Positions 5,327 to 21,107 are shown, numbered from the stretch's first letter. The stretch is 64,000 nt of DNA from Acidimicrobiales bacterium (GCA_965237375.1 CBDEFI010000006.1:418407-482406), one strand, 5' to 3'. A program made the numbers and translations. Notes: generated by a model not told the origin, from the letters alone.

Positions 5327-5465
5327 CGCTGGTCGCTCCACCGGTGGACGTAGCCGGCGTCCAGCGTCGTCGCGTCGAGGACGGCGAGATGGCCCCGTGG
5401 GTGAGGTGCTTCTGAGTGAATGTCCGCTTTGGGCGGTTTGATTAGCCCACGTTCGGGGTGGGGGG

Positions 5466-6509
5466 TCATGGCTGGGTTGGTTTGTTTTTGCGATGGTAGG
5501 CGATGCGGTCGCGGCGGGCTCGGGTGAGGCCGTCGCGGCGGGCCTGGCGGATGGTGTCGCCACGTCCTTGGTGTTCGTCGTCGGGGGTGACGTAGCGGAG
5601 GGAGGCGTGCAGGCGTCGGGTGTTGTAGTCGTCGCGGACGGTGTCGAGTTCGGTGCGCAGCGTGTTGGGGTCGGTGATTTGTTCGAGGTGGGGCCATTCG
5701 GTTTTGATGTGGCCGAAGAGCGTTTCGATCCATGCTTGGTCAGTCGGGGTGCCGGGGCGGCCGTAGTGCGCGGCGATGGAGCACATGGCGAAGAACTCTC
5801 GTGTGGTGCCGGCGCGCATCTGCGGGCCGTTGTCGGAGAGGGCCAGCAGGATCGGCTCGGCGTCGTCGCTGTTGGCTTGGCGGGCCTCGATGTGTTCCCA
5901 GAGTCCTTCGGCGTCGAGCGCGTCGCAGAAGACGACTTCGACCTGTGTGGCGGTCTCCTCGACGCTGACGAGGGTGGCGAGCCATTTGCGGGTAACGACG
6001 TCCAAGATGGCGTAGGCGACCCGGTTCGCGCGGGGGAAGTGGGTGATGTCATAGATCCAGATCTGGTGGCGTTCCCAGCGCACCCAGTCCGGCATCGGGC
6101 GCGCCGCAGCGGGACTGCGCTGAGGCCGGGCGGGTAGAACGAGCCCTTCACCTGCCAGGGTGCGGTACACCGTCGACGGTGACACCCACACGAGCCCCTC
6201 ATAGGAGGCGCGGTGCGCGAGCTTGCGGTAGCCGCCGTCGATGTCGCCCCACGCGTCGAACAGCTCCAAGATCGCCTGGCGTTCGGCGGGCGTGATGGCG
6301 TGCACAGCGCCGCCGCCGGCGGCGCTGTCGTCGAGGCGGCCAGCCGCCTGGCGGTGCCGCCACCGCCGCCAGCGGCGGGAATCCAACTCCAACACAGCGC
6401 ACGCCCGAGACGCCGCCCAACCCTCGCCCACGGCACCATCGACGAGGTCCAACAAGGCGGCCTTGACACCGGCATCGACACGCGGGGGCACGCCGGCGTT
6501 CACCCCCAA
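5466..6509 (-). CDS. IS3-family transposase OrfB (DDE/rve integrase core)
   Basis: 347 aa: ...WIYDITHF...LSDNGPQM...RPGTPTDQAWIETLFGHIKTEW...YNTRRLHASLRYVTP. It overlaps the orfA 3' end. Confidence 0.9.
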   Translation of the reverse strand: MGVNAGVPPRVDAGVKAALLDLVDGAVGEGWAASRACAVLELDSRRWRRWRHRQAAGRLDDSAAGGGAVHAITPAERQAILELFDAWGDIDGGYRKLAHRASYEGLVWVSPSTVYRTLAGEGLVLPARPQRSPAAARPMPDWVRWERHQIWIYDITHFPRANRVAYAILDVVTRKWLATLVSVEETATQVEVVFCDALDAEGLWEHIEARQANSDDAEPILLALSDNGPQMRAGTTREFFAMCSIAAHYGRPGTPTDQAWIETLFGHIKTEWPHLEQITDPNTLRTELDTVRDDYNTRRLHASLRYVTPDDEHQGRGDTIRQARRDGLTRARRDRIAYHRKNKPTQP

Positions 6510-6841
6510 CGCTCTTTTCCCTCCAACAACGTGACCTTCACCGCCATCTCCTTGAGCGCCTCACCCAGCCGCGCCACCTCACCGCGGGCCATTGCCAACT
6601 CGGGATCCTCACCGCCCGCGCGCACCCCCGGCCGCGACGACGCCAACGCCTCCAGGGCGCCCCGCTTGGCCACCTCGCGGGCCTTCATGATCGTCGAACG
6701 ATCCACCCCCCAATGATCCGCGCACGCAGCGACGGTCATCTCACCGGTCAGCACCTGCACGAACGCCTCATACTTCTCCGCCGGCGACAAGAACCGCCGA
6801 CGGCGCCTGCCACGCTCACCGGACTTCGAAGAACTGCTCAT
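6500..6841 (-). CDS. IS3-family transposase OrfA (HTH)
   Basis: 113 aa: RRRRFLSPAEKYEAFVQVLTGEMTVAACADHWGVDRSTIMKAREV, followed by a leucine-zipper-like tail. Confidence 0.9.
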   Translation of the reverse strand: MSSSSKSGERGRRRRRFLSPAEKYEAFVQVLTGEMTVAACADHWGVDRSTIMKAREVAKRGALEALASSRPGVRAGGEDPELAMARGEVARLGEALKEMAVKVTLLEGKERWG

Positions 6842-7939
6842 CTGACGCTCCCTTCACAACGCCACGCTCCCACCCCCAATGTGGGCTAATCAACCACCCA
6901 AAACCGGACACGAACTCAGAACCAGAACAGGGGAGGTTGCGGATGTTGGTGAGGGTGGTGTGGAAGGTGGGCGCCCAGGGCCAGTGGGCGGGTAGGCGCA
7001 AGATGGTGCGTCCGGCGTGGTTGACGAGGCGTCCGGGGAGGGCGAGGAGTTGGTTGCGGACGGTTTGCCCGGCGGTGAGTCGGCCGCGGCGGTTGGGGGT
7101 GTGGTGGTTGATCCAGCGGTAGAGGTTGTGGGCCAGGGTGGCGCAGGTCAGCCAGGCGGCGTTGGCGGCGAAGCGTCCCGACGGCAGGTGGGCGAGGCCG
7201 GTGGAGTTCTTGAGGTCGCGAATGGCGAGTTCGACGGTGGCGTGTTGGCGGTGGAACACGTCGGCGGCGACGGTGTCAGATGTGGTGTTGGTGACGAAGG
7301 CGTGGTAGCGCCAGTCGGGCCATAACGCCGCTTGTGTTTCGTCGGTGAGGCGGCTGCGGCGCACCACGAGGCGCAGCTTGCGCCCCTCGCCGCGGGCGCC
7401 GGCGACGAGGGTGGTCGCCGCCACGTGCGCTTCGCCGCCGAGCCGATAGTCGATCGGCGTCCAGTCCGCGTCGGCAATGGCATCAATGGCGGCTTTGACG
7501 TGGGCGTACAGCGGCATCGTGATCGACCAGCGCACCTTGAGGCGCTCCAGAGTGTCGAGGAGGTCATAGGACCAGAACCCCGCGTCGGCGCGCACGGTCA
7601 GTTCGCCGGTCGCGCCGGCGCGTCGGGCGCGGTGGACGGTTTCGGCGACGAAATGGGCGTTGCCGCTCTGGCCGACCCCTTGCGCAGGCGGGCATGCAGC
7701 ACCTCGCCGGTCTCGCCGCGGGTCGCCACCAACGGGCAATAGCCCAACTCGGCGGTGTAGCCGTAGGCGGCGCCGGCCTTGGCCTTGCCGACCACTTCAC
7801 AGATCGTCGAGTCCACGTCGATGGTCATCGCATCCTCCCCGGGGCCGCCGATGACCAACCACGCCGCGCGCAGCACCTCGCCGGCCGCCTTGTCCAACTG
7901 AGGTGTGTCTGAGTCTTCCGCGGAGATTGGGGTTGGTAA

Positions 7940-9013
7940 TTAACCAAGTTGGGGGGTGTTCTCGGGTGTGGTTGTTGTTGTCTGGCGGTTGTGGTCGAGG
8001 CGTTGTTGGTGGGCTCGTTTCAGGCCTTGGCGTCGGGCCTCGCGGATGTGTTCTCCTCGGTGGTGGTGTTCGTCGTCGGGGGTAACGTAGCCGATTGCCT
8101 GGTGGAGGCGGACGGTGTTGTACTCGACGCGGACGCGGGCCAGCTCGACGTCGAGCTGTTCGGCGTCGGTGATCGTTGCGAGGTGGGGCCATTCGTGTTT
8201 GATGTGTCCGAAGAACGACTCGATCCACGCCTGGTCGGTGGGGGTGTGTGGTCGGCCGTGGTGCTGGGCGATGGCCATGAGTGTCATGTAGGCGCGGGTG
8301 GCTGTTGAGGTCATGGCCGGGCCGTTGTCGGACACGGCGAGCAGGATCGGCCGGTCGGGGTCGTCGGCGTCGAGGTCGAGGCGTTCGTCGGTGAGCAACT
8401 CGTCGAGACCTTCGGTGAGCAGGGCGGCGTCGAAGACGACGCGGACCTGTGTGGAGGTCTCTTCGGTGGAGACCAGCGTCGCGATCCAGCGTCGCGAGAC
8501 CATGTCGACGATCGCGAACACGACCCGTCGGGCGGCGCCGAAGTGGGTGACGTCCCAGATCCAGATCCGGTTGGGTTCCCACACCAGCCAGGGCGGCCAC
8601 GGTGTGCGAACTCGCCGTGGCTGCGCCGGCTGTTGGGCCAGGACGAGGCCGTGAGCAGCGAGAACACGCCGAAACGTTGACGGCGAGACCCACACCTTGG
8701 ACTGGTAGGAGCCGCGGTGCGCGAGCTTGCGATGCGACCGGTCCACCGGACCCCACTCCTCGGCGGTCTCCAAGATCGCCTCCACCTCACCGTCCAACAG
8801 GCGATGCACGGCCGTCGCGCCGGCGCTGCGGTCCTCCAGATCGCCGTCGCTGCGCCGGGCGCGCCAGCGGTGCACCCGATCATCGGAGACCTGCCACAGG
8901 CCGGTTGCCCAGCGGTGCGCGAACCCGCCGGCGACCGCGTCGTCGACAGTGCAAAGAACCAGTTCCTTCACCTCGGCGGGGACTCGCGCCGGGACCGGTC
9001 CGCTCAGCCCCAT
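7940..9013 (-). CDS. IS3-family transposase OrfB
   Basis: ATG at 9013 overlaps the orfA end. Motifs: ...WIWDVTHF...VSDNGPAM...RPHTPTDQAWIESFFGHIKHEW...YNTVRLHQAIGYVTP. Confidence 0.85.
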   Translation of the reverse strand: MGLSGPVPARVPAEVKELVLCTVDDAVAGGFAHRWATGLWQVSDDRVHRWRARRSDGDLEDRSAGATAVHRLLDGEVEAILETAEEWGPVDRSHRKLAHRGSYQSKVWVSPSTFRRVLAAHGLVLAQQPAQPRRVRTPWPPWLVWEPNRIWIWDVTHFGAARRVVFAIVDMVSRRWIATLVSTEETSTQVRVVFDAALLTEGLDELLTDERLDLDADDPDRPILLAVSDNGPAMTSTATRAYMTLMAIAQHHGRPHTPTDQAWIESFFGHIKHEWPHLATITDAEQLDVELARVRVEYNTVRLHQAIGYVTPDDEHHHRGEHIREARRQGLKRAHQQRLDHNRQTTTTTPENTPQLG

Positions 9014-9327
9014 CCCGATTTTCCCCGGATGATCGCCAACTCGATCGCTTGCGCCTTGACCGCCTCGGTCAGCTGACCAATCTCGTTGCGTGCCGCCTCG
9101 AGCTCCCAGTTGCGTTGGCTCGCCGGCCGACCAGGCCGGCGAGCCAACGCCGCCAACGCCGCGTCCTTCACCGTGCGGCGGATCGTGATGATCGTCGACA
9201 CGTCCACCGTCCACTTACGGGCCGCCTCGGCCTGGGTCACCTCCCCAGAGGTGACCTGCAGGAAAATCTCCCACTTCGCCTCCGCGGACAACTTCGTCGG
9301 CCGACGCCGACCGTCTCCAGTAGTCAT
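9004..9327 (-). CDS. IS3-family transposase OrfA
   Basis: 107 aa: PTKLSAEAKWEIFLQVTSGEVTQAEAARKWTVDVSTIITIRR. Confidence 0.85.
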   Translation of the reverse strand: MTTGDGRRRPTKLSAEAKWEIFLQVTSGEVTQAEAARKWTVDVSTIITIRRTVKDAALAALARRPGRPASQRNWELEAARNEIGQLTEAVKAQAIELAIIRGKSGWG

Positions 9328-9920
9328 CTGATGCTCCTTCGCATATCAGCGAGAAGACCACCAAACTAGGTTAATTATTCAACACCATCTCCGCGGTGAA
9401 CTCAGACGCAGCACACAACTGGCGGACGTGACCCCACGTGAACGAACGCAGGAACGTCCCCAACGTCGACGGCGCCATCACCGTGAACCCCAACACCCGC
9501 CGCGTCGCGCCGGCGCGCAACCGATTCGCGTGATCGATGTGCGTCGCGCCCACCAGCATCGCCGCCACCAACGTCACCACCTTGCGACCCGGACCCGCCC
9601 CACCCGGGCGCCCCGACAGGCACACCACACGGTCAACGATCGCCGCCACACCCAACCGGCTCAGCAGCGTGCCCGCCACCAACAAGCCCGCATCGGCCAC
9701 CAACGACTCGTCGTCGAAAACCACCCCGAACCGATCAATCTTGCGCGATACTTCACTCACAGGAAGTGCCTCCCGAACTCGGGCCGTAGCCGCTGTTGCT
9801 AACGGCTATTCTCCCAGGTCAGCGAGGCACTTCCGCGCACCCCTAGCCCCCACAGACCAGACCCCACCGGTGGATCCAGGCTTAGTTCCTGCTATGGGGC
9901 TATCAGTCTCTGATCGGCTC

Positions 9921-12191
9921 TCATGACCGTGGTTGCCAGCGGCCACAGTCGTCGCTGGAGAACCAGGCGTCAGTAGGCAGGATCTCGACGACGACCCGGT
10001 CGCCGCCCTCATGGAGGCCACTGGCGATGGTGTCGTCGAAATCGCCGCTGGCACCCGAGAGCCGTTCCCAAAGACAGAGATCACCGTCGGGCACAACAGT
10101 TTGGTAGACGCCCGGCGCCACCTCAGCGCCGACCTCCCACACCCCCGAACCGAAACCATCCTCCGCTAGCTCCGCCGAAGCCGCGTGCGGTTGCCAGCGG
10201 CCGCAGTCGTCGCTGGAGAACCAGGCGTCAGTAGGCAGGATCTCGACGACGACCCGGTCGCCGCCCTCATGGAGGCCACTGGCGATGGTGTCGTCGAAAT
10301 CGCCGCTGGCACCCGAGAGCCGTTCCCAAAGACAGAGATCACCGTCGGGCACAACAGTTTGGTAGACGCCCGGCGCCACCTCAGCGCCGACCTCCCACAC
10401 CCCCGAACCGAAACCATCCTCCGCAGGCTCCTCTGGAGTCGTTGGCTCAGCAGTTTCCTCCGGAGCAACCGTGGTCGACGGACCATCATCCTCCGCAGCC
10501 TCCGCCGAGGCCGTGTGCGGTTGCCAGCGGCCGCAGTCGTCGCTGGAGAACCAGGCGTCAGTAGGCAGGATCTCGACGATGACCCGGTCGCCGCCCTCAT
10601 GGAGGCCACTGGCGATGGTGTCGTCGAAATCGCCGCTGGCACCCGAGAGCCGTTCCCAAAGACAGAGATCGCCGTCGGGCACAACAGTTTGGTAGACGCC
10701 CGGCGCCACCTCAGCGCCGACCTCCCACACCCCCGAACCGAAACCATCCTCCGCAATTCCTGCCTGTCGCGCTGGCGACAGTGACCGGCCGAGGCTGGCG
10801 TCGAGTTCGATCACCGAGCGCACGGTGTACCAGCTACCGACGATGTGCATCACGGCGAACGTGGGCGAGACCAGGTTGCCGCTGGCGTTTAGTTCAAGTG
10901 AACTCGACGGGCCGTCGTAATCGATCTCCTCGCCTCGCTCGAGCGCTGCGACGCCGTCGGCGTACGTATACACCTTGGTGCCCGGAGCGTTGACGATGCT
11001 AGGAACCTGCGCGGCGACGGCTGCGCCGTCGGTGGTGCCGGCGGCGGTCATCGCCAACGCCAAGACGATGTACTGGTCGAACTGGTTGGTCTCATAGAAG
11101 CCCGTCGGAGGCGGCCTGTCGGTGAACTCCTGATGCGCCGCGGCGAACGCGGCATAGGCCGGGGAATCGAAGTCGTCGGTGAGCCAGGCGCCCAGAATGC
11201 GACCGGTCGGCAACTCTGCGGCCGTCTCAGCGATGTCGGGAACCTGCAGTTCCGGCGAGACCAGGATTGTGGCGTCGTAACCCGCGGCGATGTACTCCCG
11301 GATGATCGGGATACCCGCCCGGGGACCCGCACCGATGTACACAGCCTCCGGGTCGCCGCTCAACGCCTGGCGCACTTCAGCCTGGTAGCTGCCGCTGCCG
11401 GGAGCGAAGCGCACGTCGGCGATGATCTCGCCACCGACCTTGTTCTCCCAGACATCCCTGAACGCATTCGCCGGGATCTCAGTGGCCTCGGTCTGCTGCA
11501 CCAGCATGGCCACCCGCGAGAAGCCCACGTCGCGGGCTAACTGCGCGGACATGATGCCGTAGGTGGTGTCCGACGCGGTGATGCGCCAGATGAAGTTGCC
11601 GCCCTCGGTGTCCAGCACGGTCGTGCCACAGACCGGGCACATGGTCGGCATCTCGTCCTCTGCCACGGTGCTCAGCAGAGCCACGGCGCCGTCGGACTCG
11701 ACGCCTCCGAGAGCGTCGATCTCCTCGCGGATCCGGTTGTAACCCGTGACCGCGCCCTCGGCGGTGGACAGGTTGTCCTGCACCACGAGTTCCACGCCGC
11801 GACCCAAGATGCCGCCGGCCTCGTTGATCACACCAATAGCGGCCTGCGCGCCATCGAGACTTGGCGGACCCCACGCGGCGTAGTCACCAGAAAGCCCCGC
11901 AAGAAAGCCGAACTTCACCGGCCCCCCATCAGACGCACCCCCCTCCACACTCTCCGCCTGCGCTGAACCGGGCACCTCCTCCGCTACCTCCGGAACCGGT
12001 TCCGGAGCCGCGGAGCCCTCGACAGGGCCACCACTCGCCGCCTGCGTTGAACCGGGCGCCTCCTCCGCTTCCTCCGGAACCGGTTCCGGAGCCGCGGAGC
12101 CCTCGACAGGGCCACCACTTCCGCACGAGAACGCAAACAGCGTCAGTGCAGCAACGGCGATAGCCCAACAGTGTCGCTTGGCTGTCATCAT
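9921..12191 (-). CDS. Lipoprotein: ABC-transporter substrate-binding domain (LivK/Peripla_BP_6-like) fused to three C-terminal Cys-pair repeat domains
   Basis: Lipobox LFAFSCGSG. There are two 28-aa acidic/Pro linker repeats. The SBP core runs VKFGFLAGLSGDYAAWG...IGVINEAGGILGR...YIGAGPRAG. It is followed by 3x EDGFGSGVWEVGAEVAPGVYQTVVPDGDLCLWERLSGASGDFDDTIASGLHEGGDRV.VEILPTDAWFSSDDCGRWQP. Confidence 0.8.
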   Translation of the reverse strand: MMTAKRHCWAIAVAALTLFAFSCGSGGPVEGSAAPEPVPEEAEEAPGSTQAASGGPVEGSAAPEPVPEVAEEVPGSAQAESVEGGASDGGPVKFGFLAGLSGDYAAWGPPSLDGAQAAIGVINEAGGILGRGVELVVQDNLSTAEGAVTGYNRIREEIDALGGVESDGAVALLSTVAEDEMPTMCPVCGTTVLDTEGGNFIWRITASDTTYGIMSAQLARDVGFSRVAMLVQQTEATEIPANAFRDVWENKVGGEIIADVRFAPGSGSYQAEVRQALSGDPEAVYIGAGPRAGIPIIREYIAAGYDATILVSPELQVPDIAETAAELPTGRILGAWLTDDFDSPAYAAFAAAHQEFTDRPPPTGFYETNQFDQYIVLALAMTAAGTTDGAAVAAQVPSIVNAPGTKVYTYADGVAALERGEEIDYDGPSSSLELNASGNLVSPTFAVMHIVGSWYTVRSVIELDASLGRSLSPARQAGIAEDGFGSGVWEVGAEVAPGVYQTVVPDGDLCLWERLSGASGDFDDTIASGLHEGGDRVIVEILPTDAWFSSDDCGRWQPHTASAEAAEDDGPSTTVAPEETAEPTTPEEPAEDGFGSGVWEVGAEVAPGVYQTVVPDGDLCLWERLSGASGDFDDTIASGLHEGGDRVVVEILPTDAWFSSDDCGRWQPHAASAELAEDGFGSGVWEVGAEVAPGVYQTVVPDGDLCLWERLSGASGDFDDTIASGLHEGGDRVVVEILPTDAWFSSDDCGRWQPRS
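9925..10757 (-). repeat. Three near-identical tandem coding repeats (~240 bp units at ~9925-10166, 10185-10427, 10515-10757)
   Basis: The units are almost identical at DNA level; off-frame ORFs 9933-10169 and 10185-10784 give identical peptides. Linkers between units are 18 and ~87 bp. Confidence 0.9.
11950..12120 (-). repeat. 2 x 84-bp tandem coding repeat (GGPVEGSAAPEPVPE.AEE.PGS.QA)
   Basis: A direct nucleotide repeat is visible at ~11960-12040 and ~12044-12120. Confidence 0.8.
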
Positions 12192-12212
12192 TCAGTTGAA
12201 CCTTCCCGGGTG

Positions 12213-12400
12213 TCACGCAGGCTGTTTGGTTTGAGTCGTGGCCGGGTGACCTGAGTGCCGTTGACGGTAGTACCGATCTTCGGCTCCGGCCGACGGGACA
12301 GCGTAGCGACCAATGGAATCGCTCTCAGCATGAAGCGCCTCGGTTGCGCCGCATCTGGTTGGCGGCCCCGAGCTCGCCGCCTCATCCCGACTCCTGCTGT
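12213..12400. repeat. ~190-bp conserved segment, second copy at ~57715-57900
   Basis: ggtttgagtcgtggcc.ggtgacctgagtg.cgttgacggtagtaccgatcttcggc...ctgctgttcagacatcgccgagg is ~85-90% identical in the two loci. Both lie 3' of a truncated doc. Confidence 0.8.
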
Positions 12401-12597
12401 TCAGACATCGCCGAGGTTGCCAAGGCGGCTTTGGCTTCGATTGTGGGGCAGAACTCCTCATCACCGAATCCGCCCTGGGGTCGGGCGACCGCAGAATCGG
12501 CGAGGCCGAGGTCGGTCACCCGCAGGATCTCGTCTGCGTCGAGTTGGAGCACCTCGCAGGCGATGGCGAGGACATCGCCGAGTGCGAGGTAGATCAC
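12382..12597 (-). pseudogene. Doc/Fic-family toxin, N-terminal ~60 aa only
   Basis: VIYLALGDVLAIACEVLQLDADEILRVTDLGLADSAVARPQGGFGDEEFCPTIEAKAALA matches the Doc N-terminus. The catalytic H..DGNKR region is absent in all three frames downstream. Confidence 0.65.
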
Positions 12598-12598
12598 C

Positions 12599-12817
12599 TC
12601 AGGCGTCGGCGAGCATGTTCAGGAGTTGCTGGTGGCGCTGGAGGTTGCGCCGCAGCATCACCTGGAACTCCGGATCGCGGCGTCGCCGCTCGACGTGCTC
12701 GGCGAGCGCATCTCGAATGACGTCACTCACGGTGGATCCATCAACTTCCGCGATGGTCTGGACCTTCTCGGCCAGGCACGCGTCCATACGGAGTGTCATG
12801 TTCTTCGTGTCAGCCAT
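12599..12817 (-). CDS. Ribbon-helix-helix (CopG/Phd-like) antitoxin
   Basis: 72 aa: MTLRMDACLAEKVQTIAEVDGSTVSDVIRDALAEHVERRRRDPEF. It ends 1 nt before the doc remnant. Confidence 0.7.
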   Translation of the reverse strand: MADTKNMTLRMDACLAEKVQTIAEVDGSTVSDVIRDALAEHVERRRRDPEFQVMLRRNLQRHQQLLNMLADA

Positions 12818-12929
12818 CAGGTCCTCCTTCGGCGCCGCGCTATTGGCGATGACAGCAGCGCGCTATTTAGATACCAAGATAACTCGGTATCGCACCGTAA
12901 GCCCCTGACTTGATCTGTGCCATACTAGT

Positions 12930-13417: not shown

Positions 13418-15142
13418 GTGAGGCACCGCTGTTGCCTGATACCCCTTCTGATCGTGCTAGCGGTGCTGGCTGTGGGTTGCGCCGCGCGAGAGCCCCAAAC
13501 CGGGCCGGCTGCTGAGGTTGCATCCGAGTCTGCGCCGGAGACGACGGACGCAGCGACGTCCTCACCTCCGGCCGATTGCGATTTCTCTGACCACGCCGAG
13601 GGTGTGCTGGACTCGGTGTTTCAGGTCGTGACGGATGACGGCATCGGTACTGCGTTCTATCTGGGCGACCGGGAGTGGCTCACTGCTGCTCATGTGGTTG
13701 GCACCGCCAGCAGCATCGCCCTCTCCAACGGCCCGAGCGACGTGTCAGCGTCCGTGAAGGGCATCGACTACAACGCGGACTTGGCGCTGCTGGAGGGTGT
13801 ACCCGCCGGAGGGAAGGCGGTGCAACCGCTCCGCATAGAAGAGGCTACGCCGCAACCCGGCGATGCAGCGATTGTGGTCGGGTATCCGCTCTATCAGGAA
13901 GACTCTGCGTCCGTCAGCCGTGGCGTGGTCTCACGGCTGGAAGATGATGATTTTGGAGAACTCATCGTGTCGGACGCCTCCGTCAATCCCGGCAACAGCG
14001 GTGGCCCCATGCTGAACGAATGCGGCAACGTAATCGGGGTCGTCTTTCAGAAGTACGTTGGATTTGATGTAGAAGGCATCGGGTATGCGATATCAGCCAA
14101 TGACGTAACGTCGGTTCTGCCCCGACTGCGAGATGGATTCAAGGGCACGCCTGGACCAACGACGACGCTCGGTGACTCTTCAACGCCGAGCGGCACAACA
14201 CTGCCTCCGGCCCCAGCAATCTGGACGGTTACTGAGACGGAGCCGGACTTACTGACCGGCGAGACCTTCCCCATTGCATTCATCACTGCATCAGACTACG
14301 AGCGGGACTTCGACCTATATGACCCACCTGTGTTGGGTATTTCCTGCGATGGGACATGGGGACTTTGGTGGGGTGGTGGTTATGTGGCTGCTCCCTATGG
14401 GGGCGGGATTCCGGCAGCGTACCGGGTAGGTGATGGTCAGGTGTTCGCTCTTGAATGGAACGAGTACTCTGACAACGAGTCCATGTCGCTCTCGGGTGCG
14501 GATGCTGAGCAACTGGGAGAGAGTGTATTGCAAGCCTCGCCCACAGAGGAAATCATCATTAGAGCCTGGAACTATGATGACTCTGAGATTGGTACTGCCG
14601 TGTTCAGCCTGGATGGCCTTTCGGAGGCGGTTCTTAAAATGAAGAGACGATGTGTGCCCTTGTTCGCCCAAACGGTAACGGATGAGGTCATTTCAGGATC
14701 GTTCGCTTCGGGTCAGTGGGTCCGGTGGGTTTCAGAACCTGTGAACGGTATGTTCATTCCCGGCACCCGAGGCATGGCCATGGCAGTCGTTTGTGTGGGT
14801 GAGAGTGACAACGGCGTGCTATTCATGCACTCGATTCCATTGGCGACACAGGAGGAATACCAGTTGTGGTACTGGTTGGGTAGCTCATTTGACAAGGGGA
14901 ACCAAACTCTGGCTCAAGTCGACCGTGACGACAATCTGTTGTTTATGCAATGGTACGACGAGAACAGCTTTATTCGAGCACTAGACGCGGACACGACAGG
15001 AACGCTTCAGGTAGAAGTCAAGAATCTAGACGGTTCCGAGACAGTGGGAGGGGCGGCCGAGTTTGATATAAGCAGGTGGCCGGAGGCGAAAGCAGCCTTG
15101 CAGGCCGAATGCTTAACCCGCTGGCACCGTAAGGATCTCTAG
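13418..15142 (+). CDS. Secreted/lipoprotein trypsin-like (S1C/Trypsin_2) serine protease with a large uncharacterised C-terminal region
   Basis: GTG at 13418 follows GGGGAGGG. Signal/lipobox LAVLAVGCA. Catalytic-triad context: WLTAAHVV, DLALLEG, NPGNSGGPMLN. The C-terminal ~330 aa has lower GC and no family I recognise. Confidence 0.75.
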   Translation: MRHRCCLIPLLIVLAVLAVGCAAREPQTGPAAEVASESAPETTDAATSSPPADCDFSDHAEGVLDSVFQVVTDDGIGTAFYLGDREWLTAAHVVGTASSIALSNGPSDVSASVKGIDYNADLALLEGVPAGGKAVQPLRIEEATPQPGDAAIVVGYPLYQEDSASVSRGVVSRLEDDDFGELIVSDASVNPGNSGGPMLNECGNVIGVVFQKYVGFDVEGIGYAISANDVTSVLPRLRDGFKGTPGPTTTLGDSSTPSGTTLPPAPAIWTVTETEPDLLTGETFPIAFITASDYERDFDLYDPPVLGISCDGTWGLWWGGGYVAAPYGGGIPAAYRVGDGQVFALEWNEYSDNESMSLSGADAEQLGESVLQASPTEEIIIRAWNYDDSEIGTAVFSLDGLSEAVLKMKRRCVPLFAQTVTDEVISGSFASGQWVRWVSEPVNGMFIPGTRGMAMAVVCVGESDNGVLFMHSIPLATQEEYQLWYWLGSSFDKGNQTLAQVDRDDNLLFMQWYDENSFIRALDADTTGTLQVEVKNLDGSETVGGAAEFDISRWPEAKAALQAECLTRWHRKDL

Positions 15143-15303
15143 GATCGCGTCGGGGATCTAGCCCAAACCACCTTCCCCCGGTTGCGGCAGATGACGGTGG
15201 CTAACGTGCACTGAAACCACGGGCTTGCTAGCTGTTTCGTTGTGAGCGTCCACAGCGTTACAGGGAGCACTGGCTAGAATTGTAGGCGGATTCCGTTACC
15301 CGC

Positions 15304-16995
15304 CTAGCTATCTCTGGGAAATCTGGCGCTGGTAGTGCCTTCAGTTGTTGAGAGGCTGCTTGCTTCATTGTCGTGATTGACGGCGGTGACCGCGACAGTG
15401 TATGTGGTGCCGAATCGGAGGTTCGGGCTGGTATGTGATGTGCCGGTCGTCCTGTAGAGCCTGCTCTGCCATGGCGGAATATCGCCAATGGCGGGGCGGG
15501 AATACCGCACTAGGTAGTGATCGATCGTCGCACTCCCCGAATCCGACGGCGGCGACCAAGTGACCACAATCTGCCTCACACCGTGCGCCGCCGCGCTCAC
15601 ATTCCGCGGTGACGATGGCAACTCGGCAGGTGGTGTTGTCACGGAGCTAGTGGCCTCGGGACCTGAACCGAATGCGTTCTCAGCGACCACCCGCATCGTA
15701 TAAGTGGTATCAGTACGCGGATTCCTTACCGCAAACCCGCGATCGCTCGCCGACAGAAAGTAAGGACCGAATATCCGCCCGGGTCGTGAGATCGTCAGTG
15801 TATAGCCGGTAGTCGGCGATCCGCCGTCGCCCAAAGGCGGTGACCAAGAGGCAATAACTCGATCTCCATCCGTCGACCTGTCGAACTCAAAACGGGCGTT
15901 CAATGGATTATCGGCGTCGACCGACTCGCCAATCGTGAGCGGCAGTGCTTCATCGGTCGAATCATCAGGGGTGCCGGTCGTCGTGCAGCTGTTCGGCGCG
16001 ACCGCCAGATTGACCTCGTTGTTCCTGATCCGCAGACTGCTGGAGGCGATCTGGCAGGTAGCGCCGGCGTCGTTCACGAACGTGGCGGACAAGTCATATT
16101 CGCAGATGTCATTGACCACCAGGGGGATCTCGACGGGTTCGTCCACGACGGTCCACGACATCGAGCCGCTCGCCCCGCTGGTGCTGATGCCCGGGTCGCA
16201 ACCATGCCGCGTCTGCCAAGACACCGTATAGACACCAGCAACCGTGTCGGTCCTGATAATGATGACCTGCCTGGTGCCGGTAGGGGTGCCGGTCCCCGTG
16301 GGGGTGCCAGTAGGAGTGCAGCTGTTCGGCTCGACCACCAGATCGACCTCGTTGTTGCTGATCCGCAGACTGCTGGGGGAGATCCGGCAAGCGGCGCCGG
16401 CAGCGTTCTCAAACGTGGCGGACAAGTCGTATTCGCAGGTGTCATTGACCACCAGGGGGATCTCGACGGGTTGGCCCACGACGATCCGCCACATTGAGCC
16501 GCTCGCCCCGCTGGTGCTGATGCCCGGGTCGCAACCATGCCGCGTCCGCCAAGACACCCAGTAGGAACCAGCAACCGTGTCGGTCCTGATCGTGATGACC
16601 TGACTGGTGCCAGTAGGAGTGCAGCTGTTCGGCTCGACCACCAGATTGACCTTGTCGTTGCTGATCCGCAGACTGCTGGGGGAGATCCGGCAAGCCGCGC
16701 CGGCGGCGTTCAGGAACGTGGCGGACAAGTCGTATTCGCAGATGTCATTGACCACCAGCGGGATCTCGACGGGTTCGTCCACGACGGTCCACGACATCGA
16801 GCCGCTCGCCCCGCTGGTGCTGATGCCCGGGTCGCAACCATGCCGCGTCTGCCAAGACACCGTATAGACACCAGCGACCGTGTCGCTCCTGACAATGATG
16901 ACCTTCAGATCGGCGGCGGCTGGACTCGAGGCCAGCACCACGGCCGCACCAAGCAGACCGGCGACAGACACGACGCCGAAGACGAACTTTCTCAT
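15304..16995 (-). CDS. Secreted protein: three tandem ~110-aa Cys-containing repeats + two fibronectin type III-like domains
   Basis: Signal peptide MRKFVFGVVSVAGLLGAAVVLASSPAAA. It has 3x (TVAG.Y.VSW.TRHGCDPGISTSGASGSM...VEIPLVVND.CEYDLSATF.NAAGA.C.I..SSLRI.N..V.L.V.PNSCT). FN3-like motifs are GGSPTTGYTLT and SGSATIDHYLVRY...YTVAVTAVN. Confidence 0.75.
   Translation of the reverse strand: MRKFVFGVVSVAGLLGAAVVLASSPAAADLKVIIVRSDTVAGVYTVSWQTRHGCDPGISTSGASGSMSWTVVDEPVEIPLVVNDICEYDLSATFLNAAGAACRISPSSLRISNDKVNLVVEPNSCTPTGTSQVITIRTDTVAGSYWVSWRTRHGCDPGISTSGASGSMWRIVVGQPVEIPLVVNDTCEYDLSATFENAAGAACRISPSSLRISNNEVDLVVEPNSCTPTGTPTGTGTPTGTRQVIIIRTDTVAGVYTVSWQTRHGCDPGISTSGASGSMSWTVVDEPVEIPLVVNDICEYDLSATFVNDAGATCQIASSSLRIRNNEVNLAVAPNSCTTTGTPDDSTDEALPLTIGESVDADNPLNARFEFDRSTDGDRVIASWSPPLGDGGSPTTGYTLTISRPGRIFGPYFLSASDRGFAVRNPRTDTTYTMRVVAENAFGSGPEATSSVTTPPAELPSSPRNVSAAAHGVRQIVVTWSPPSDSGSATIDHYLVRYSRPAIGDIPPWQSRLYRTTGTSHTSPNLRFGTTYTVAVTAVNHDNEASSLSTTEGTTSARFPRDS
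15890..16905 (-). repeat. Three tandem ~330-bp coding repeats inside 15304-16995
   Basis: Nucleotide-level similarity produces repeated off-frame ORFs, for example 16109-16390 versus 16442-16693. Confidence 0.8.
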
Positions 16996-17172
16996 CCCGC
17001 TTCATGTCCCCCTCGATCGTCGGCCCCCACCACCACTCCGGAGCAGTTGCTGGGATCGTAGTCAACCTGGCTCGGGTCAAGGCTCTTACCGTCCGGGAGT
17101 CTGAAGGAGGCGATCTACCCCAGAGTTCTCGCGGCCGGGTGAGTGAACCTCCCCGGGACGTTTCTATAGATG

Positions 17173-17879
17173 TCAAGTGCGGGTTGTGAGGGTGGCGAGG
17201 TCGGCTCGGAGGGTGCGGTAGAGCTCGCGGGGCGACGAAGCGTTTGAGGCAGCGGATGACTTCTTTCTTGGTCTTGCCTTCGGCGAGGCGGCGGTCCATG
17301 TAGCCGCGAGTTCGTTCGCAGTAGCGCAATCGGACGAGGACGATCATGTGCAGGGCTCGGTTGGCTGCGCGGTTGCCTGGGTAGTTGAGCCGGTGACGGC
17401 TGGTGCGCCCGCTCGACGCGGGGACCGGCGCGGTTGCGCACAGGTGAGCGAAGGACGCCTCGGAGCCGAGCCGGTCGATGTTCTCGCCCGCGGCGACGAG
17501 CAGGGTCGCGGTGTGGTGAGTGCCGCATCCGAGACGGGACACCGTCGAGGGCGCCGCGGCGGCGACCAGCCGGTCGAGCCGGCGCTCCAGATCGGCGGCC
17601 TCGGAGCCGAGCCGGGCGATGCGACGCCCCAGACTGCGCAACGCCGTCTTGGCGGCCTGGGCGGGATCGGCGAGGCGGTCGGTGTCGGGGCGCAGTCGGG
17701 CGCACACGGCAGCCTTGGCCTCGAGGGTCCGACGGCCGTCGAGCTGGTGGCGCAACGCGGCAGGGGCCGTGACGAGCAGGTCGCCGAGCTGGCACAACGC
17801 GGCGGCGCGGGCCTTGATAGCGCTGTTTCGGGCGACGCTGAGCTGGCGGATCGCCTCGACGATTCCGGTGGTGTCCTTA
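17173..17879 (-). pseudogene. IS110-family transposase, C-terminal half (truncated by IS1380 copy B, plus a frameshift)
   Basis: ...AIRQLSVARNSAIKARAAALCQLGDLLV...LGCGTHHTATLLVAAGENIDRLGSEASFAHLCATAPVPASSGRTSRHRLNYPGNRAANRALHMIV...KTKKEVIRCLKRFVA. An extra C near 17232 breaks ...RELYRTLRADL...*. The DEDD N-domain is missing. Confidence 0.8.
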
Positions 17880-19310
17880 GCCTGGATCCACCGGTGGGGT
17901 CTGGTCTGTGGGGGCTAGGGGTGCGCGGAAGTGCCTCGCTGACCTGGGAGAATAGCCGTTAGCAACAGCGGCTACGGCCCGAGTTCGGGAGGCACTTCCT
18001 GTGAGTGAAGTATCGCGCAAGATTGATCGGTTCGGGGTGGTTTTCGACGACGAGTCGTTGGTGGCCGATGCGGGCTTGTTGGCGGCGGGCACGCTGCTGA
18101 GCCGGTTGGGTGTGGCGGCGATCGTTGACCGTGTGGTGTGCCTGTCGGGGCGCGCGGGTGGGGCGGGTCCGGGTCGCAAGGTGGTGACGTTGGTGGCGGC
18201 GATGCTGGTGGGCGCGACGCACATCGATCACGCGAATCGGTTGCGCGCCGGCGCGACGCGGCGGGTGTTGGGGTTCACGGTGATGGCGCCGTCGACGTTG
18301 GGGACGTTCCTGCGTTCGTTCACGTGGGGTCACGTCCGCCAGTTGGACAAGGCGGCCGGCGAGGTGCTGCGCGCGGCGTGGTTGGTCAGCGGCGGCCCCG
18401 GGGAGGATGCGATGACCATCGACGTGGACTCGACGATCTGTGAAGTGGTCGGCAAGGCGAAGGCCGGCGCCGCCTACGGCTACACCGCCGAGTTGGGCTA
18501 TTGCCCGTTGGTGGCGACCCGCGGCGAGACCGGCGAGGTGCTGCATGCCCGCCTGCGCAAGGGGTCGGCCAGAGCGGCAACGCCCATTTCGTCGCCGAAA
18601 CCGTCCACCGCGCCCGACGCGCCGGCGCGACCGGCGAACTGACCGTGCGCGCCGACGCGGGGTTCTGGTCCTATGACCTCCTCGACACTCTGGAGCGCCT
18701 CAAGGTGCGCTGGTCGATCACGATGCCGCTGTACGCCCACGTCAAAGCCGCCATTGATGCCATTGCCGACGCGGACTGGACGCCGATCGACTATCGGCTC
18801 GGCGGCGAAGCGCACGTGGCGGCGACCACCCTCGTCGCCGGCGCCCGCGGCGAGGGGCGCAAGCTGCGCCTCGTGGTGCGCCGCAGCCGCCTCACCGACG
18901 AAACACAAGCGGCGTTATGGCCCGACTGGCGCTACCACGCCTTCGTCACCAACACCACATCTGACACCGTCGCCGCCGACGTGTTCCACCGCCAACACGC
19001 CACCGTCGAACTCGCCATTCGCGACCTCAAGAACTCCACCGGCCTCGCCCACCTGCCGTCGGGACGCTTCGCCGCCAACGCCGCCTGGCTGACCTGCGCC
19101 ACCCTGGCCCACAACCTCTACCGCTGGATCAACCACCACACCCCCAACCGCCGCGGCCGACTCACCGCCGGGCAAACCGTCCGCAACCAACTCCTCGCCC
19201 TCCCCGGACGCCTCGTCAACCACGCCGGACGCACCATCTTGCGCCTACCCGCCCACTGGCCCTGGGCGCCCACCTTCCACACCACCCTCACCAACATCCG
19301 CAACCTCCCC
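17880..19310 (+). mobile_element. IS1380-family element, copy B (abutted at its 3' end by IS3 type 1)
   Basis: Same sequence as copy A but without the nested IS3 type 2. The junction with IS3 type 1 (…caacctcccc|tgttctgg…) is identical in both copies. Confidence 0.8.
18001..19310 (+). pseudogene. IS1380-family transposase with an internal frameshift (~18560)
   Basis: ORFs 18001-18642 and 18501-19424 join into one IS1380-type protein only after a frame change following LHARLRKGSA. The C-terminal read-through enters IS3. Confidence 0.8.
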
Positions 19311-19398
19311 TGTTCTGGTTCTGAGTTCGTGTCCGGTTTTGGGTGGTTGATTAGCCCACATTGGGGGTGGGAGCGTGGCGTTGTGAAGGGAGCGTCAG

Positions 19399-19740
19399 AT
19401 GAGCAGTTCTTCGAAGTCCGGTGAGCGTGGCAGGCGCCGTCGGCGGTTCTTGTCGCCGGCGGAGAAGTATGAGGCGTTCGTGCAGGTGCTGACCGGTGAG
19501 ATGACCGTCGCTGCGTGCGCGGATCATTGGGGGGTGGATCGTTCGACGATCATGAAGGCCCGCGAGGTGGCCAAGCGGGGCGCCCTGGAGGCGTTGGCGT
19601 CGTCGCGGCCGGGGGTGCGCGCGGGCGGTGAGGATCCCGAGTTGGCAATGGCCCGCGGTGAGGTGGCGCGGCTGGGTGAGGCGCTCAAGGAGATGGCGGT
19701 GAAGGTCACGTTGTTGGAGGGAAAAGAGCGTTGGGGGTGA
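19399..19740 (+). CDS. IS3-family transposase OrfA
   Basis: Identical to the 6500-6841 product. Confidence 0.9.
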   Translation: MSSSSKSGERGRRRRRFLSPAEKYEAFVQVLTGEMTVAACADHWGVDRSTIMKAREVAKRGALEALASSRPGVRAGGEDPELAMARGEVARLGEALKEMAVKVTLLEGKERWG

Positions 19741-20774
19741 ACGCCGGCGTGCCCCCGCGTGTCGATGCCGGTGTCAAGGCCGCCTTGTTGGACCTCGTCG
19801 ATGGTGCCGTGGGCGAGGGTTGGGCGGCGTCTCGGGCGTGCGCTGTGTTGGAGTTGGATTCCCGCCGCTGGCGGCGGTGGCGGCACCGCCAGGCGGCCGG
19901 CCGCCTCGACGACAGCGCCGCCGGCGGCGGCGCTGTGCACGCCATCACGCCCGCCGAGCAGCAGGCGATCTTGGAGCTGTTCGACGCGTGGGGCGACATC
20001 GACGGCGGCTACCGCAAGCTCGCGCACCGCGCCTCCTATGAGGGGCTCGTGTGGGTGTCACCGTCGACGGTGTACCGCACCCTGGCAGGTCAGGGCCTTG
20101 TCCTACCCGCCCGGCCTCAGCGCAGTCCCGCTGCGGCGCGCCCGATGCCGGACTGGGTGCGCTGGGAACGCCACCAGATCTGGATCTATGACATCACCCA
20201 CTTCCCCCGCGCGAACCAGGTCGCCTACGCCATCTTGGACGTCGTTACCCGCAAATGGCTCGCCACCCTCGTCAGCGTCGAGGAGACCGCCACACAGGTC
20301 GAAGTCGTCTTCTGCGACGCGCTCGACGCCGAAGGACTCTGGGAACACATCGAGGCCCGCCAAGCCAACAGCGACGACGCCGAGCCGATCCTGCTGGCCA
20401 TGAGCGACAACGGCCCTCAAATGCGCGCCGGCACCACACGAGAGTTCTTCGCCATGTGCTCCATCGCCGCGCACTACGGCCGCCCCGGCACCCCGACTGA
20501 CCAAGCATGGATCGAAACGCTCTTCGGCCACATCAAAACCGAATGGCCCCACCTCGAACAAATCACCGACCCCAACACGCTGCGCACCGAACTCGACACC
20601 GTCCGCGACGACTACAACACCCGACGCCTGCACGCCTCCCTCCGCTACGTCACCCCCGACGACGAACACCAAGGACGTGGCGACACCATCCGCCAGGCCC
20701 GCCGCGACGGCCTCACCCGAGCCCGCCGCGACCGCATCGCCTACCATCGCAAAAACAAACCAACCCAGCCATGA
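19731..20774 (+). CDS. IS3-family transposase OrfB
   Basis: 347 aa, near-identical to the 5466-6509 product. Confidence 0.9.
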   Translation: MGVNAGVPPRVDAGVKAALLDLVDGAVGEGWAASRACAVLELDSRRWRRWRHRQAAGRLDDSAAGGGAVHAITPAEQQAILELFDAWGDIDGGYRKLAHRASYEGLVWVSPSTVYRTLAGQGLVLPARPQRSPAAARPMPDWVRWERHQIWIYDITHFPRANQVAYAILDVVTRKWLATLVSVEETATQVEVVFCDALDAEGLWEHIEARQANSDDAEPILLAMSDNGPQMRAGTTREFFAMCSIAAHYGRPGTPTDQAWIETLFGHIKTEWPHLEQITDPNTLRTELDTVRDDYNTRRLHASLRYVTPDDEHQGRGDTIRQARRDGLTRARRDRIAYHRKNKPTQP

Positions 20775-21107
20775 CCCCCCACCCCGAACGTGGGCTAATC
20801 AAACCGCCCAAAGCGGACATTCACTCAGAAGCACCTCACGTTCAGGGGGCGGTACGCCTAAGTTGCCGCCAGGTTGTTGGCGTCGGCCAGAATCCGTAGT
20901 CGATGACGGTGATGACCTCGCAGTCGGTGCTCATGTCGGCCCAGGCATCGGCACGGCCCATGCCGCCAAGGTGACGGACCAGTGATCCTCCCCGGGTCTT
21001 GCGCAGGCTGTGGTGTGCCCCGTGTTCCGCGCGGTCGGAGGTGAGCCCCGGGTTTCGCGCGGTCAGGTCATTTGATCGGTGGCGGAGGCGAGGGCACCCC
21101 TGAGACG

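What the first reader, a model, noticed from the sequence alone, without database searches (positions are those of the whole stretch)
5402..20838. Inverted IS3/IS1380 compound copies bracket an 8-kb cargo of secreted-protein genes (composite-transposon-like)
5402-9882 and 17880-20838 are inverted copies of the same compound unit. The unit is an IS1380-family element whose 3' end abuts an IS3-family element at an identical junction (…caacctcccc|tgttctgg…). Both copies share the same transposase frameshift. So the IS3 insertion and the frameshift predate the duplication, and the chimera duplicated as a unit. Copy A later acquired a second, different IS3 with a clean CAAC duplication; copy B preserves the empty site. 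The inner segment (9883-17879) carries the SBP-repeat lipoprotein, an RHH/doc remnant, an island-end module, a serine protease, the FN3 repeat protein and a truncated IS110. I found no direct repeats flanking either copy or the whole 15.4-kb structure. Movement by homologous recombination or inversion, or by one-ended ISEcp1-like transposition using a surrogate end, is therefore as likely as classical composite transposition.
Basis: partly seen in the sequence, partly recalled or inferred. Interest (0 to 1): 0.55.

Follow-up and report, generated by a model that had tools for sequence, protein, structure and literature searches.

The report
Inverted nested-IS chimeras bracketing 8 kb
Two inverted sister copies of a fused pair of insertion sequences (a dead, end-truncated IS1380 element joined to an intact IS3-family element) bracket 8 kb of secreted-protein genes in an uncultured Acidimicrobiia genome; this is ordinary insertion-sequence wear and tear, with no sign that the 15-kb block was inserted here as a transposon.

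Summary
Window 5401-7900 and 9416-9885 are 99.3-99.6% reverse-complement copies of 18340-20839 and 17876-18345.

Each unit is an intact IS3-family element ("IS_1", 1,528 bp) fused head-to-tail to an IS1380-family element. Copy A also carries a second IS3-family element ("IS_2", 7899-9415), flanked by a CAAC duplication.

- **The IS1380 is truncated.** Full-length sister copies (98.6-99.3% identical) show both window copies lack the same last ~205-209 nt: three codons, the stop, a C-rich tail and the right inverted repeat.
- **The shared frameshift says nothing about the duplication.** It occurs in every copy of this defective multi-copy isoform, including full-length copies with perfect 5-bp duplications.
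- **The left outer junction is a synteny breakpoint, not a clean insertion site.** This comes from a related genome.

The identical truncation junction is what shows a single origin. Related IS3 elements insert at many different sites, so two independent identical insertions are unlikely.

Both inner junctions sit on the IS1380 target CTNAG. Both outer junctions are exact IS_1 termini. There is no duplication around either unit or the whole block.

My best reading: IS_1 nested in IS1380, the compound was copied by IS1380 transposase supplied in trans, and IS_1-mediated rearrangement then replaced the outer flanks. Novelty and interest are low.

The parts
5402..6929 (-). IS_1 copy A: intact IS3-family element, 1,528 bp. 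The right repeat is at the outer (5402) end and the left repeat at the 6929 end. orfA is 6500-6841 and orfB 5466-6509, with the -1 slippery motif G GGA AAA at 6515-6521.
   Evidence: rve/rve_3/HTH_32 domains, with IS3 the best NCBIfam model. About 50-nt imperfect inverted repeats with TG...CA ends, homologous to those of IS_2, whose ends are fixed by duplications. Slippery motif.
6930..7898 (-). IS1380-family remnant, copy A, 3' part. The transposase ORF2 has no stop of its own and reads 38 codons into IS_1 (...NIRNLP|CSGSEF...).
   Evidence: PF13701 and NF033539 matches reach the end of the models at the junction. Full-length relatives continue with QLC*, a ~200-nt C-rich tail and the right repeat GGTGGATYCAGG.
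7899..9415 (-). IS_2: a second IS3-family element, 1,517 bp. Its orfB is 51% amino-acid identical to that of IS_1. It is nested in IS1380 copy A only, with a CAAC duplication at 7895-7898 and 9416-9419.
   Evidence: Empty site in copy B. Domains. The same element, 99.4-100% identical, is found at four other loci, three of them with 4-bp duplications.
9416..9880 (-). IS1380-family remnant, copy A, 5' part. It has an intact left repeat (CCTGGATCCACCG, tip at 9880) and the start of the transposase gene.
   Evidence: The left repeat is identical to those of relatives, which all begin straight after a CTNAG target.
9881..17880 (.). Bracketed 8.0-kb segment. It begins and ends with CTTAG on the + strand (9881-9885 and 17876-17880), which matches the IS1380 target. 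Contents:
- SBP lipoprotein, 9921-12191(-)
- RHH, 12599-12817(-)
- trypsin-like lipoprotein, 13307-15142(+)
- FN3 protein, 15304-16995(-)
- IS110 fragment lacking its N-terminal part, 16745-17797(-)
   Evidence: Pfam, N-terminal signal and lipobox sequences, flank sequences.
17881..19310 (+). IS1380-family remnant, copy B, 1,430 bp and uninterrupted. It has the left repeat at 17881, the frameshift near 18575 and the same 3' truncation point as copy A.
   Evidence: Four private single-base differences from A over the aligned 1,430-1,432 nt.
19311..20838 (+). IS_1 copy B: intact, with orfA 19399-19740 and orfB 19731-20774. It has 16 differences from copy A, all within A coordinates 5820-6342.
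   Evidence: The four amino-acid differences between A and B all have at least one state shared with other IS_1-type sequences, so exchange with other copies is the likely source.
4562..5401 (-). Left flank: an intact PP2C phosphatase gene (4562-5326) plus the last 75 nt of an upstream gene. That gene is cut off exactly at the IS_1 end.
   Evidence: Translation. The orthologous locus L159 is 97% identical up to window 5401 and then continues with a 202-aa gene that is absent from the window.
20839..21129 (-). Right flank: an unannotated 95-aa ORF whose stop codon lies 3 nt from the IS_1 end. The first 5 nt (CGTTC) equal the sequence that follows the left-flank breakpoint in the relative. After that there is no similarity.

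Best explanation
**What it is**
- Two sister copies of one chimera sit in inverted orientation around 8 kb of ordinary genes.
- Each chimera is a defective IS1380-family element followed head-to-tail by an intact IS3-family element, IS_1.
- The IS1380 part is frameshifted, keeps its left repeat, and has lost its last ~205-209 nt including the right repeat.
- The IS_1/IS1380 junction arose once.

**How it most likely formed (inferred)**
1. IS_1 inserted, co-oriented, four codons before the IS1380 stop. This is a normal nested insertion that left the tail and right repeat on the far side of IS_1.
2. The 3.2-kb compound still had both IS1380 ends. IS1380 transposase supplied in trans copied it to a second CTNAG site. 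This frameshifted isoform must always be mobilised that way.
3. DNA beyond the outer IS_1 ends, including the IS1380 tails, was then replaced. The cause was either recombination with other IS_1 copies or movement of the IS_1-bounded block. This erased all duplications.
4. IS_2 then landed in copy A.

**What it is today.** The structure has the form of an IS_1-bounded composite transposon that could move. There is no evidence it was inserted here as a unit.
For: **Shown**
- Inverted repeats and an identical junction.
- Truncation, judged against three full-length copies 98.6-99.3% identical. These are 1,639 bp (L156) or ~1,634 bp (L158), and carry IRL CCTGG... and IRR ...CCAGG.
- 5-bp duplications at full-length copies: CTAAG/CTAAG in L157 and CTTAG/CTTAG in L158. 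L156 has mismatched flanks, CTTAG/CTAAG.
- The same frameshift in all of these copies, so the isoform spreads despite a broken gene (gapless alignments; intact relatives).
- Both window left repeats abut CTTAG/CTAAG, the family's target. Both inner junctions were therefore made by IS1380-type integration.
- Both outer junctions fall exactly on the IS_1 terminus defined by homology to IS_2, whose ends are fixed by 4-bp duplications at four loci.
- A and B are each other's closest relatives. They have 4 private singletons across the IS1380 part and a shared derived base.
- IS_1 carries 16 differences against 4 in the IS1380 part (binomial p = 0.013). They are clustered, and the resulting amino-acid differences are shared with other IS_1-type sequences. 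A third IS_1 copy lies on the same contig. IS_1 copies therefore exchange sequence.
- The left junction is a synteny breakpoint in a related genome.
- This IS3 subfamily inserts at many different positions. An identical junction is thus unlikely to arise twice.
- The chimeric read-through protein occurs on only one contig among about 15 billion proteins.
Against: - No nested precursor (IS1380::IS_1 with tail, right repeat and duplication) was found.
- The model needs about five events, including two separate replacements of outer flanks, or one block transposition plus one further rearrangement.
- No 3-4-bp duplication flanks the block.
- The perfectly identical 1,438-nt stretch centred on the junction (A 6343-7780) would fit equally well with a gene-conversion tract that copied the junction between two resident IS pairs.
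- The 5-nt CGTTC continuity across the whole block hints at insertion as a block, but without a duplication. No model here accounts for it.
Confidence: 0.5

Rival explanations
1. Gene conversion (ectopic repair). Only one chimera formed, by insertion followed by loss of the tail. The second locus already held its own copy of the frameshifted IS1380 at a CTNAG site, with an independent co-oriented IS_1 nearby. Repair templated on the chimera copied the junction and deleted everything between the two resident elements.
For: - A perfectly identical 1,438-nt stretch centred on the junction, with all 20 differences lying outside it on both sides.
- IS_1 copies demonstrably exchange patches.
- This IS3 subfamily habitually lands in or next to other ISs, co-oriented. 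A resident IS1380 + IS_1 pair at a second site is therefore plausible.
- It explains the exact IS termini at all four outer and inner junctions, and the lack of duplications.
Against: - It needs about as many events as the favoured model.
- The outermost 418 nt of IS_1 are again identical. A simple two-segment mosaic does not predict that.
- The four IS1380 differences are private singletons rather than shared polymorphisms, as expected for sister copies.
Confidence: 0.25
2. Classical composite transposition. The 15.4-kb block (13.9 kb before IS_2 arrived), bounded by the two outward-facing IS_1 right ends, was inserted at its present site by IS_1 transposase.
For: - Both IS_1 copies are intact, with orfA, orfB, the slippery site and both repeats.
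- Both outer ends are exact IS_1 termini.
- A single block transposition would remove both IS1380 tails at once.
- The first 5 nt of the right flank (CGTTC) continue the native sequence that follows the left flank in a relative. Chance is roughly 0.001-0.01.
Against: - There is no 3-4-bp duplication, although this subfamily made 4-bp duplications in 5 of 6 insertions examined.
- Beyond those 5 nt, the right flank shows no similarity to the relative's sequence. The rest of orf202 is nowhere in the 64-kb window.
Confidence: 0.12
3. ISEcp1-like one-ended transposition. IS1380 transposase used the left repeat plus a surrogate right end beyond IS_1, and so moved IS1380-delta + IS_1 as a transposition unit.
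For: - The family is known for this (PMC10100714).
- The geometry is right: the passenger lies 3' of the transposase gene and the true right repeat is missing.
- A trans-acting transposase evidently exists for this isoform.
Against: - The unit ends exactly at the IS_1 terminus in both copies. That end (...AGCACCTCA) has no resemblance to the right repeat (...GGTGGATYCAGG).
- Neither outer flank is CTNAG-like.
- No 5-bp duplication pairs with CTAAG or CTTAG in any flank combination.
- All complete ISEcp1 units reported in PMC10100714 carry 5-bp duplications.
Confidence: 0.05
4. Two independent, site-specific IS_1 insertions into two IS1380 copies at the same nucleotide, each followed by loss of the tail.
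For: - The IS_1 parts are more diverged than the IS1380 parts (1.05% against 0.28%).
- The subfamily clearly prefers other ISs, and a second IS3-like insertion lies only 54 nt away in another IS1380 copy (P0123).
Against: - All other insertions of the subfamily are at different nucleotides, with unrelated duplications: CAAC, AACC, GGTG, CACT, CAAC.
- It needs two identical insertions and two tail losses.
- The IS_1 differences are clustered in a central patch, flanked by identical ends. That fits conversion better than separate lineages.
Confidence: 0.05

Closest known systems
IS1380 family (ISEcp1, IS1380 and relatives; NCBIfam NF033539, Pfam PF13701)
   Same: - A DDE transposase covering model positions 2-419 of 419 across the two frames.
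- In full-length sister copies: an element of about 1.64 kb, terminal repeats starting with CC, and a 5-bp target duplication.
   Different: - The window copies are dead and one-ended. They carry a 1-nt frameshift and have lost the last ~205-209 nt, including the right repeat.
- This isoform shows a marked CTNAG target preference.
- It spreads as a non-autonomous element.
IS3 family (orfA/orfB with programmed -1 frameshift; NF033516)
   Same: - Two overlapping ORFs in the 0/-1 frames with a G GGA AAA slippery site.
- HTH + rve catalytic core.
- TG...CA ends with ~50-nt imperfect repeats.
- A 4-bp duplication for IS_2.
   Different: - orfB alone scores below the NCBIfam cut-off (130 against 160 bits).
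- Neither IS_1 copy has a duplication.
- All eight insertions of this subfamily examined lie inside other ISs, co-oriented.
Composite (compound) transposons such as Tn10, Tn5 and Tn9 (my own knowledge)
   Same: Two copies of one intact IS in inverted orientation bracket passenger genes, with both outward ends intact.
   Different: - No duplication flanks the block.
- The flanks are not contiguous in a relative.
- Each IS arm drags an identical fragment of a second, unrelated IS.
ISEcp1 transposition units (PMC10100714)
   Same: An IS1380-family element with passenger DNA 3' of the transposase gene and no use of the true right repeat.
   Different: No surrogate right end and no 5-bp duplication. 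The boundary is the terminus of another IS.

Membership tests
IS1380 family | DDE transposase of the IS1380 type | tested here: met
   PF13701 and NF033539 cover positions 2-187 (ORF1) and 186-419 (ORF2) of 419. Each half scores below the whole-protein cut-off only because the gene is split.
IS1380 family | Both terminal inverted repeats present | tested here: not met
   Only the left repeat is present, at 9868-9880(-) and 17881-17893(+). No right repeat occurs anywhere in the window. Full-length sisters have both.
IS1380 family | 4-5-bp target duplication | tested here: not met
   The left-end flanks are CTAAG and CTTAG, but no partner exists. The feature is met in L157, L158, L005, L020, L026 and L063.
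IS1380 family | Uninterrupted transposase reading frame (autonomy) | tested here: not met
   A 1-nt deletion relative to intact relatives P0001 and P0003. No slippery heptamer lies at the site on inspection.
IS3 family (IS_1, IS_2) | orfA/orfB overlap with a -1 frameshift signal and an rve catalytic domain | tested here: met
   G GGA AAA lies in the orfA frame of IS_1 and IS_2. rve, rve_3 and HTH_32 domains are present. IS3 is the best NCBIfam model.
IS3 family (IS_1, IS_2) | TG...CA termini with imperfect inverted repeats | tested here: met
IS3 family (IS_1, IS_2) | 3-4-bp target duplication | tested here: inconclusive
   IS_2 meets it: CAAC here, and AACC, GGTG and CACT elsewhere. IS_1 has none in either copy.
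Composite transposon | Two copies of the same functional IS bracket the cargo, with intact outer ends | tested here: met
   IS_1 A and B are both intact and both right repeats face outward.
Composite transposon | Target duplication flanking the whole unit | tested here: not met
   The left flank ends ...CCGTGGG and the right flank starts CGTTCAGG....
Composite transposon | The unit is present or absent as a block between otherwise contiguous flanks | tested here: not met
   In L159 the left flank continues into orf202. That gene is absent from the window, and only 5 nt match the right flank. Only one relative could be examined.
ISEcp1-type transposition unit | Left repeat plus a surrogate right end, flanked by a 5-bp duplication | tested here: not met
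   The outer end is the IS_1 terminus. It does not resemble the right repeat, and there is no 5-bp repeat in any flank pairing.

The most novel reading that the evidence does not exclude
A subfamily of IS3 elements (IS_1, IS_2 and a third member) may preferentially home into other insertion sequences in the same orientation, often near the 3' end of the host transposase gene. It would then be carried along when the host IS is mobilised in trans, making it a hitch-hiking 'IS on IS' parasite. The window's twin chimeras would be the eroded product of one such ride.
Probability: 0.15. Interest if true: 0.4.

Novelty: new member of a known kind. Interest (0 to 1): 0.2.

Why it matters
This mainly matters for annotation and for reading genome plasticity in uncultured Acidimicrobiia.
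- The 15-kb block should not be annotated as a demonstrated composite transposon.
- The chimeric ORF (IS1380 reading into IS_1) is an artefact of the fusion.
- The locus is a worked example of a non-autonomous, frameshifted IS1380 isoform spreading, and of nested ISs plus IS-IS recombination erasing the usual footprints.
- The inverted 3-kb arms make the 8-kb secreted-protein segment invertible by homologous recombination. It could also be mobilised by IS_1, which may affect strain-level variation.

None of this touches an open question in the field.

Tried and rejected
- **Exact-protein look-ups** for the protease, SBP, IS_1 orfB, PP2C and URO-D found no indexed positions. Look-ups of P0001, P0122 and P0123 also failed. 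The source contig is in the protein collection but not in the position index. The third IS_1 copy and the P0123 junction therefore could not be read as DNA.
- **The junction 23-mer** had no exact match in GTDB genomes or JGI metagenomes.
- **IS_1 relatives in JGI metagenomes** are 60% amino-acid identical or less and uninformative for the chimera. None lies in the flanks of the 75 IS1380 loci.
- **The window** holds no orphan IS1380 right repeat and no further IS_1 end.
- **Left and right flanks as halves of one gene:** rejected.
  - PP2C is intact.
  - The right-flank ORF is in a different frame from orf202 and shows no similarity to it.
- **Programmed frameshifting at the IS1380 frameshift:** no slippery heptamer on inspection.
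- **Duplicative inversion, cointegrate and inside-end models** were worked through on paper. None predicts both the flank pattern and the loss of both tails.
- **The CTTAG direct repeat at both ends of the cargo** has about a 50% chance under independent CT(T/A)AG insertions, so I gave it no weight.
- **Assembly fold-back artefact:** rejected. The middle segment is unique, and the arms differ by 20 SNPs and one IS.

Full report

Yes. Repeat finding and BLAST give two matching pairs:
- A 5401-7900 is the reverse complement of B 18340-20839 (2,500 nt, 18 mismatches, no gaps).
- A 9416-9882 is the reverse complement of B 17879-18345 (467 nt, 2 mismatches).

The 1,517 bp between the two A segments (7899-9415) is an insertion. 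It has TG...CA ends and a CAAC duplication, and copy B keeps the uninterrupted site. The window has about 67% G+C. The relatives retrieved place it in uncultured Acidimicrobiia.

**2. Anatomy**

- **IS_1** (5402-6929; in B 19311-20838) is an intact IS3-family element.
  - It has a 113-aa orfA and a 347-aa orfB in the -1 frame, overlapping at a G GGA AAA slippery site.
  - It carries HTH_32, rve and rve_3 domains, and IS3 is the best NCBIfam model.
  - It has ~50-nt imperfect terminal repeats.
- **IS_2** (7899-9415) is a paralogue. orfB is 51% amino-acid identical, and the ends are homologous.
- **The remainder of each unit** (6930-7898 plus 9416-9880; in B 17881-19310) is an IS1380-family element. 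PF13701 and NF033539 cover model positions 2-419 across two frames.
- **Orientation.** All three transposase genes in copy A point the same way. The IS_1 end that touches IS1380 is its left (promoter-proximal) repeat. The outward-facing ends of the whole structure are both IS_1 right repeats.

**3. What relatives show about the IS1380 part**

A scan of GTDB genomes returned 75 loci with relatives, all from Acidimicrobiia-type MAGs.

Their ends define the element:
- left repeat CCTGGATCCACCG...;
- right repeat ...GGTGGATYCAGG;
- a 5-bp target, usually CTTAG or CTAAG, also CTGAA or TTTAG.

After the position matching the window junction, every relative continues with three codons (QLC or QLA), a stop, a C-rich tail, and the right repeat. 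Together these span about 180-240 nt.

A protein search then found near-identical copies:

| Locus | Length | Identity to window | Flanks |
|---|---|---|---|
| L156 | 1,639 bp | 98.6% | CTTAG/CTAAG |
| L157 | carries a nested ISL3 | 99.3% | CTAAG/CTAAG |
| L158 | ~1,634 bp | 99.2% | CTTAG/CTTAG |

L157 and L158 lie on a circular 3.65-Mb contig.

Three conclusions follow:
- Both window copies lack the same terminal ~205-209 nt, including the right repeat.
- Their left repeats are intact and sit directly on CTAAG (A, in IS orientation) and CTTAG (B). Both inner junctions therefore look like products of genuine IS1380-type integration.
- The 1-nt frameshift is present in all these full-length copies, because the alignments are gapless.
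  - The frameshift is GCC CAG AGC reduced to GCCAGAGC. Intact relatives P0001 and P0003 read RKGSAQSGN.
  - It is a property of a multi-copy, non-autonomous isoform that is evidently mobilised in trans. It says nothing about how the window unit was duplicated.

**4. Single origin of the junction**

The truncated IS1380 ORF runs into the IS_1 left repeat (...NIRNLP|CSGSEFVSGF...). That chimeric protein (P0122) is recorded on a single contig of 866,259 bp, the window's source, among about 15 billion proteins.

The same MAG's 645-kb contig has two other kinds of copy:
- a normal-ended copy (P0002);
- a different IS1380/IS3-like junction 18 codons upstream (P0123...RLPAH|CVEAEFVS...). Its foreign end matches a third IS3-like element that I found nested in IS_2 at L161.

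IS_2 itself sits at five different positions with unrelated 4-bp duplications. This subfamily therefore has no nucleotide-precise target. An identical junction together with an identical loss of the tail is best explained by one event that was later copied.

In the IS1380 part, A and B differ at four private singleton positions and share a derived base relative to L156 and L158. That is the pattern expected of sister copies.

**5. Unequal divergence**

IS_1 carries 16 of the 20 differences (1.05% against 0.28%; binomial p = 0.013).
- All 16 lie within A 5820-6342, mostly in three tight patches and largely at third codon positions.
- The four resulting amino-acid differences all have at least one state shared with other IS_1-type sequences. 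These include a third copy on the same contig (P0365) and more distant relatives.
- I read this as patchy gene conversion among IS_1 copies.
- The 1,438 nt centred on the junction (A 6343-7780) are identical. Two readings fit equally well. Third-party conversion may be excluded near a junction that no other copy shares. Or a conversion tract may itself have copied the junction.

**6. Flanks**

Nothing flanks either unit or the whole 15,437-bp block as a direct repeat, and flank pairings swapped as an inversion would swap them do not help.

- **Left flank.** It holds an intact PP2C phosphatase gene. Its orthologous locus in the 3.65-Mb relative (L159) is 97% identical up to window position 5401 exactly. 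It then continues into a 202-aa gene that is absent from the whole window. The left outer junction is therefore a rearrangement breakpoint at an IS_1 terminus. It is not one side of a clean block insertion.
- **Right flank.** Its first 5 nt (CGTTC) equal the native continuation in L159, and then similarity stops. This could be chance (about 0.001-0.01) or a trace of block insertion without a duplication. I cannot explain it.
- **The unit's outer end** does not resemble the IS1380 right repeat, and neither outer flank is CTNAG-like. ISEcp1-type units are always flanked by 5-bp duplications (PMC10100714). That route is therefore disfavoured.

**7. Most likely history**

Steps inferred unless marked as shown:
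1. IS_1 made a nested, co-oriented insertion four codons before the IS1380 stop. This habit is shown for the subfamily.
2. The compound still had both IS1380 repeats. It was copied to a second CTNAG site by transposase supplied in trans. Trans-mobilisation of this isoform is implied.
3. DNA beyond both IS_1 right ends, including the IS1380 tails, was replaced by IS_1-mediated recombination or movement. The breakpoint is shown and IS_1 exchange.
4. IS_2 inserted into copy A (shown).

The main rival is gene conversion that copied the junction between two resident IS1380 + IS_1 pairs. Classical composite transposition at this site, ISEcp1-like one-ended transposition, and independent site-specific insertion are each less likely.

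The present structure does have the form of an IS_1-bounded composite, and its 3-kb inverted arms should allow inversion of the 8-kb cargo. Neither could be tested here.

**8. Comparison with known systems, and verdict**

Every component and every process invoked is well known:
- IS1380 and IS3 families;
- nested ISs;
- non-autonomous IS derivatives;
- IS-mediated recombination;
- composite-transposon-like architectures.

The elements themselves are new members, from an uncultured lineage with no close named relative.

The only mildly unusual pattern is this: all eight insertions of this IS3 subfamily that I could examine lie inside other ISs and are co-oriented with them. The sample is small and not random. 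Overall interest is low.

Noticed in passing
window 7899-9415 and 5402-6929; L160-L163; protein P0123: All eight insertions of this IS3 subfamily that I examined lie inside another IS and share its orientation. Hosts are IS1380, IS110, an IS4/5-like element, and IS_2 itself. The host transposase ORF often reads into the IS3 left repeat. Five of six with readable flanks have 4-bp duplications. This could reflect targeting or a neutral-site bias. The sample is small.
   Followed up: partly
L156, L157, L158; window 17881-19310: A frameshifted IS1380 isoform (one C lost) is present in at least six copies, 98.6-99.3% identical, across at least two genomes. Some have perfect 5-bp duplications, so a dead transposase gene is spreading, presumably mobilised in trans by paralogues about 88% identical.
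   Followed up: partly
L001, L003, L022, L039, L156: Many IS1380 relatives have 5-bp flanks that differ at a single base: the central base in L001, L003, L022 and L156 (for example CTTAG on the left, CTAAG on the right), the first base in L039. This suggests frequent flank exchange between copies, or a peculiarity of integration at the near-palindromic CTNAG target.
   Followed up: no
window 20839-20843 versus L159 9921-9925: The first 5 nt of the right flank (CGTTC) are exactly the bases that follow the left-flank breakpoint in the relative's uninterrupted locus. After that the sequences are unrelated, and there is no duplication. Unexplained.
   Followed up: partly
window 3729-3877 and 3823-4479: Two short pieces matching the ends of the ISL3 element nested in L157 (91-97% identical) lie next to a tyrosine-integrase fragment (Phage_int_M only). 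They look like remnants of an older mobile element beside the PP2C gene.
   Followed up: no
window 21038-21265, 27614-27829, 57455-57683, 61455-61648, 13107-13205: A non-coding module of about 200-230 nt recurs at least four times in both orientations (76-80% identical), with a related ~100-nt fragment at 13107-13205 matching the adjacent stretch 21257-21356. The RHH-containing segment 12226-12722 is duplicated at 57713-58114 (91-92%). These may be MITE-like or island-boundary repeats.
   Followed up: no
window 29846-30847 / 53978-54979 and 31706-32677 / 58790-59761: Two further IS pairs occur as direct repeats: an IS30-like element (HTH_38 + rve) and an IS481-family element. The IS481-family element is 98.5-98.7% identical to a copy in L159. 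The whole window is IS-saturated.
   Followed up: no
window 43325-43711, 35610-35695, 41619-43196: A tmRNA gene (Rfam 69 bits) and a tRNA-Leu gene are present. Just upstream of the tmRNA gene is a long array with a 111-nt period (67-71% identical copies).
   Followed up: no
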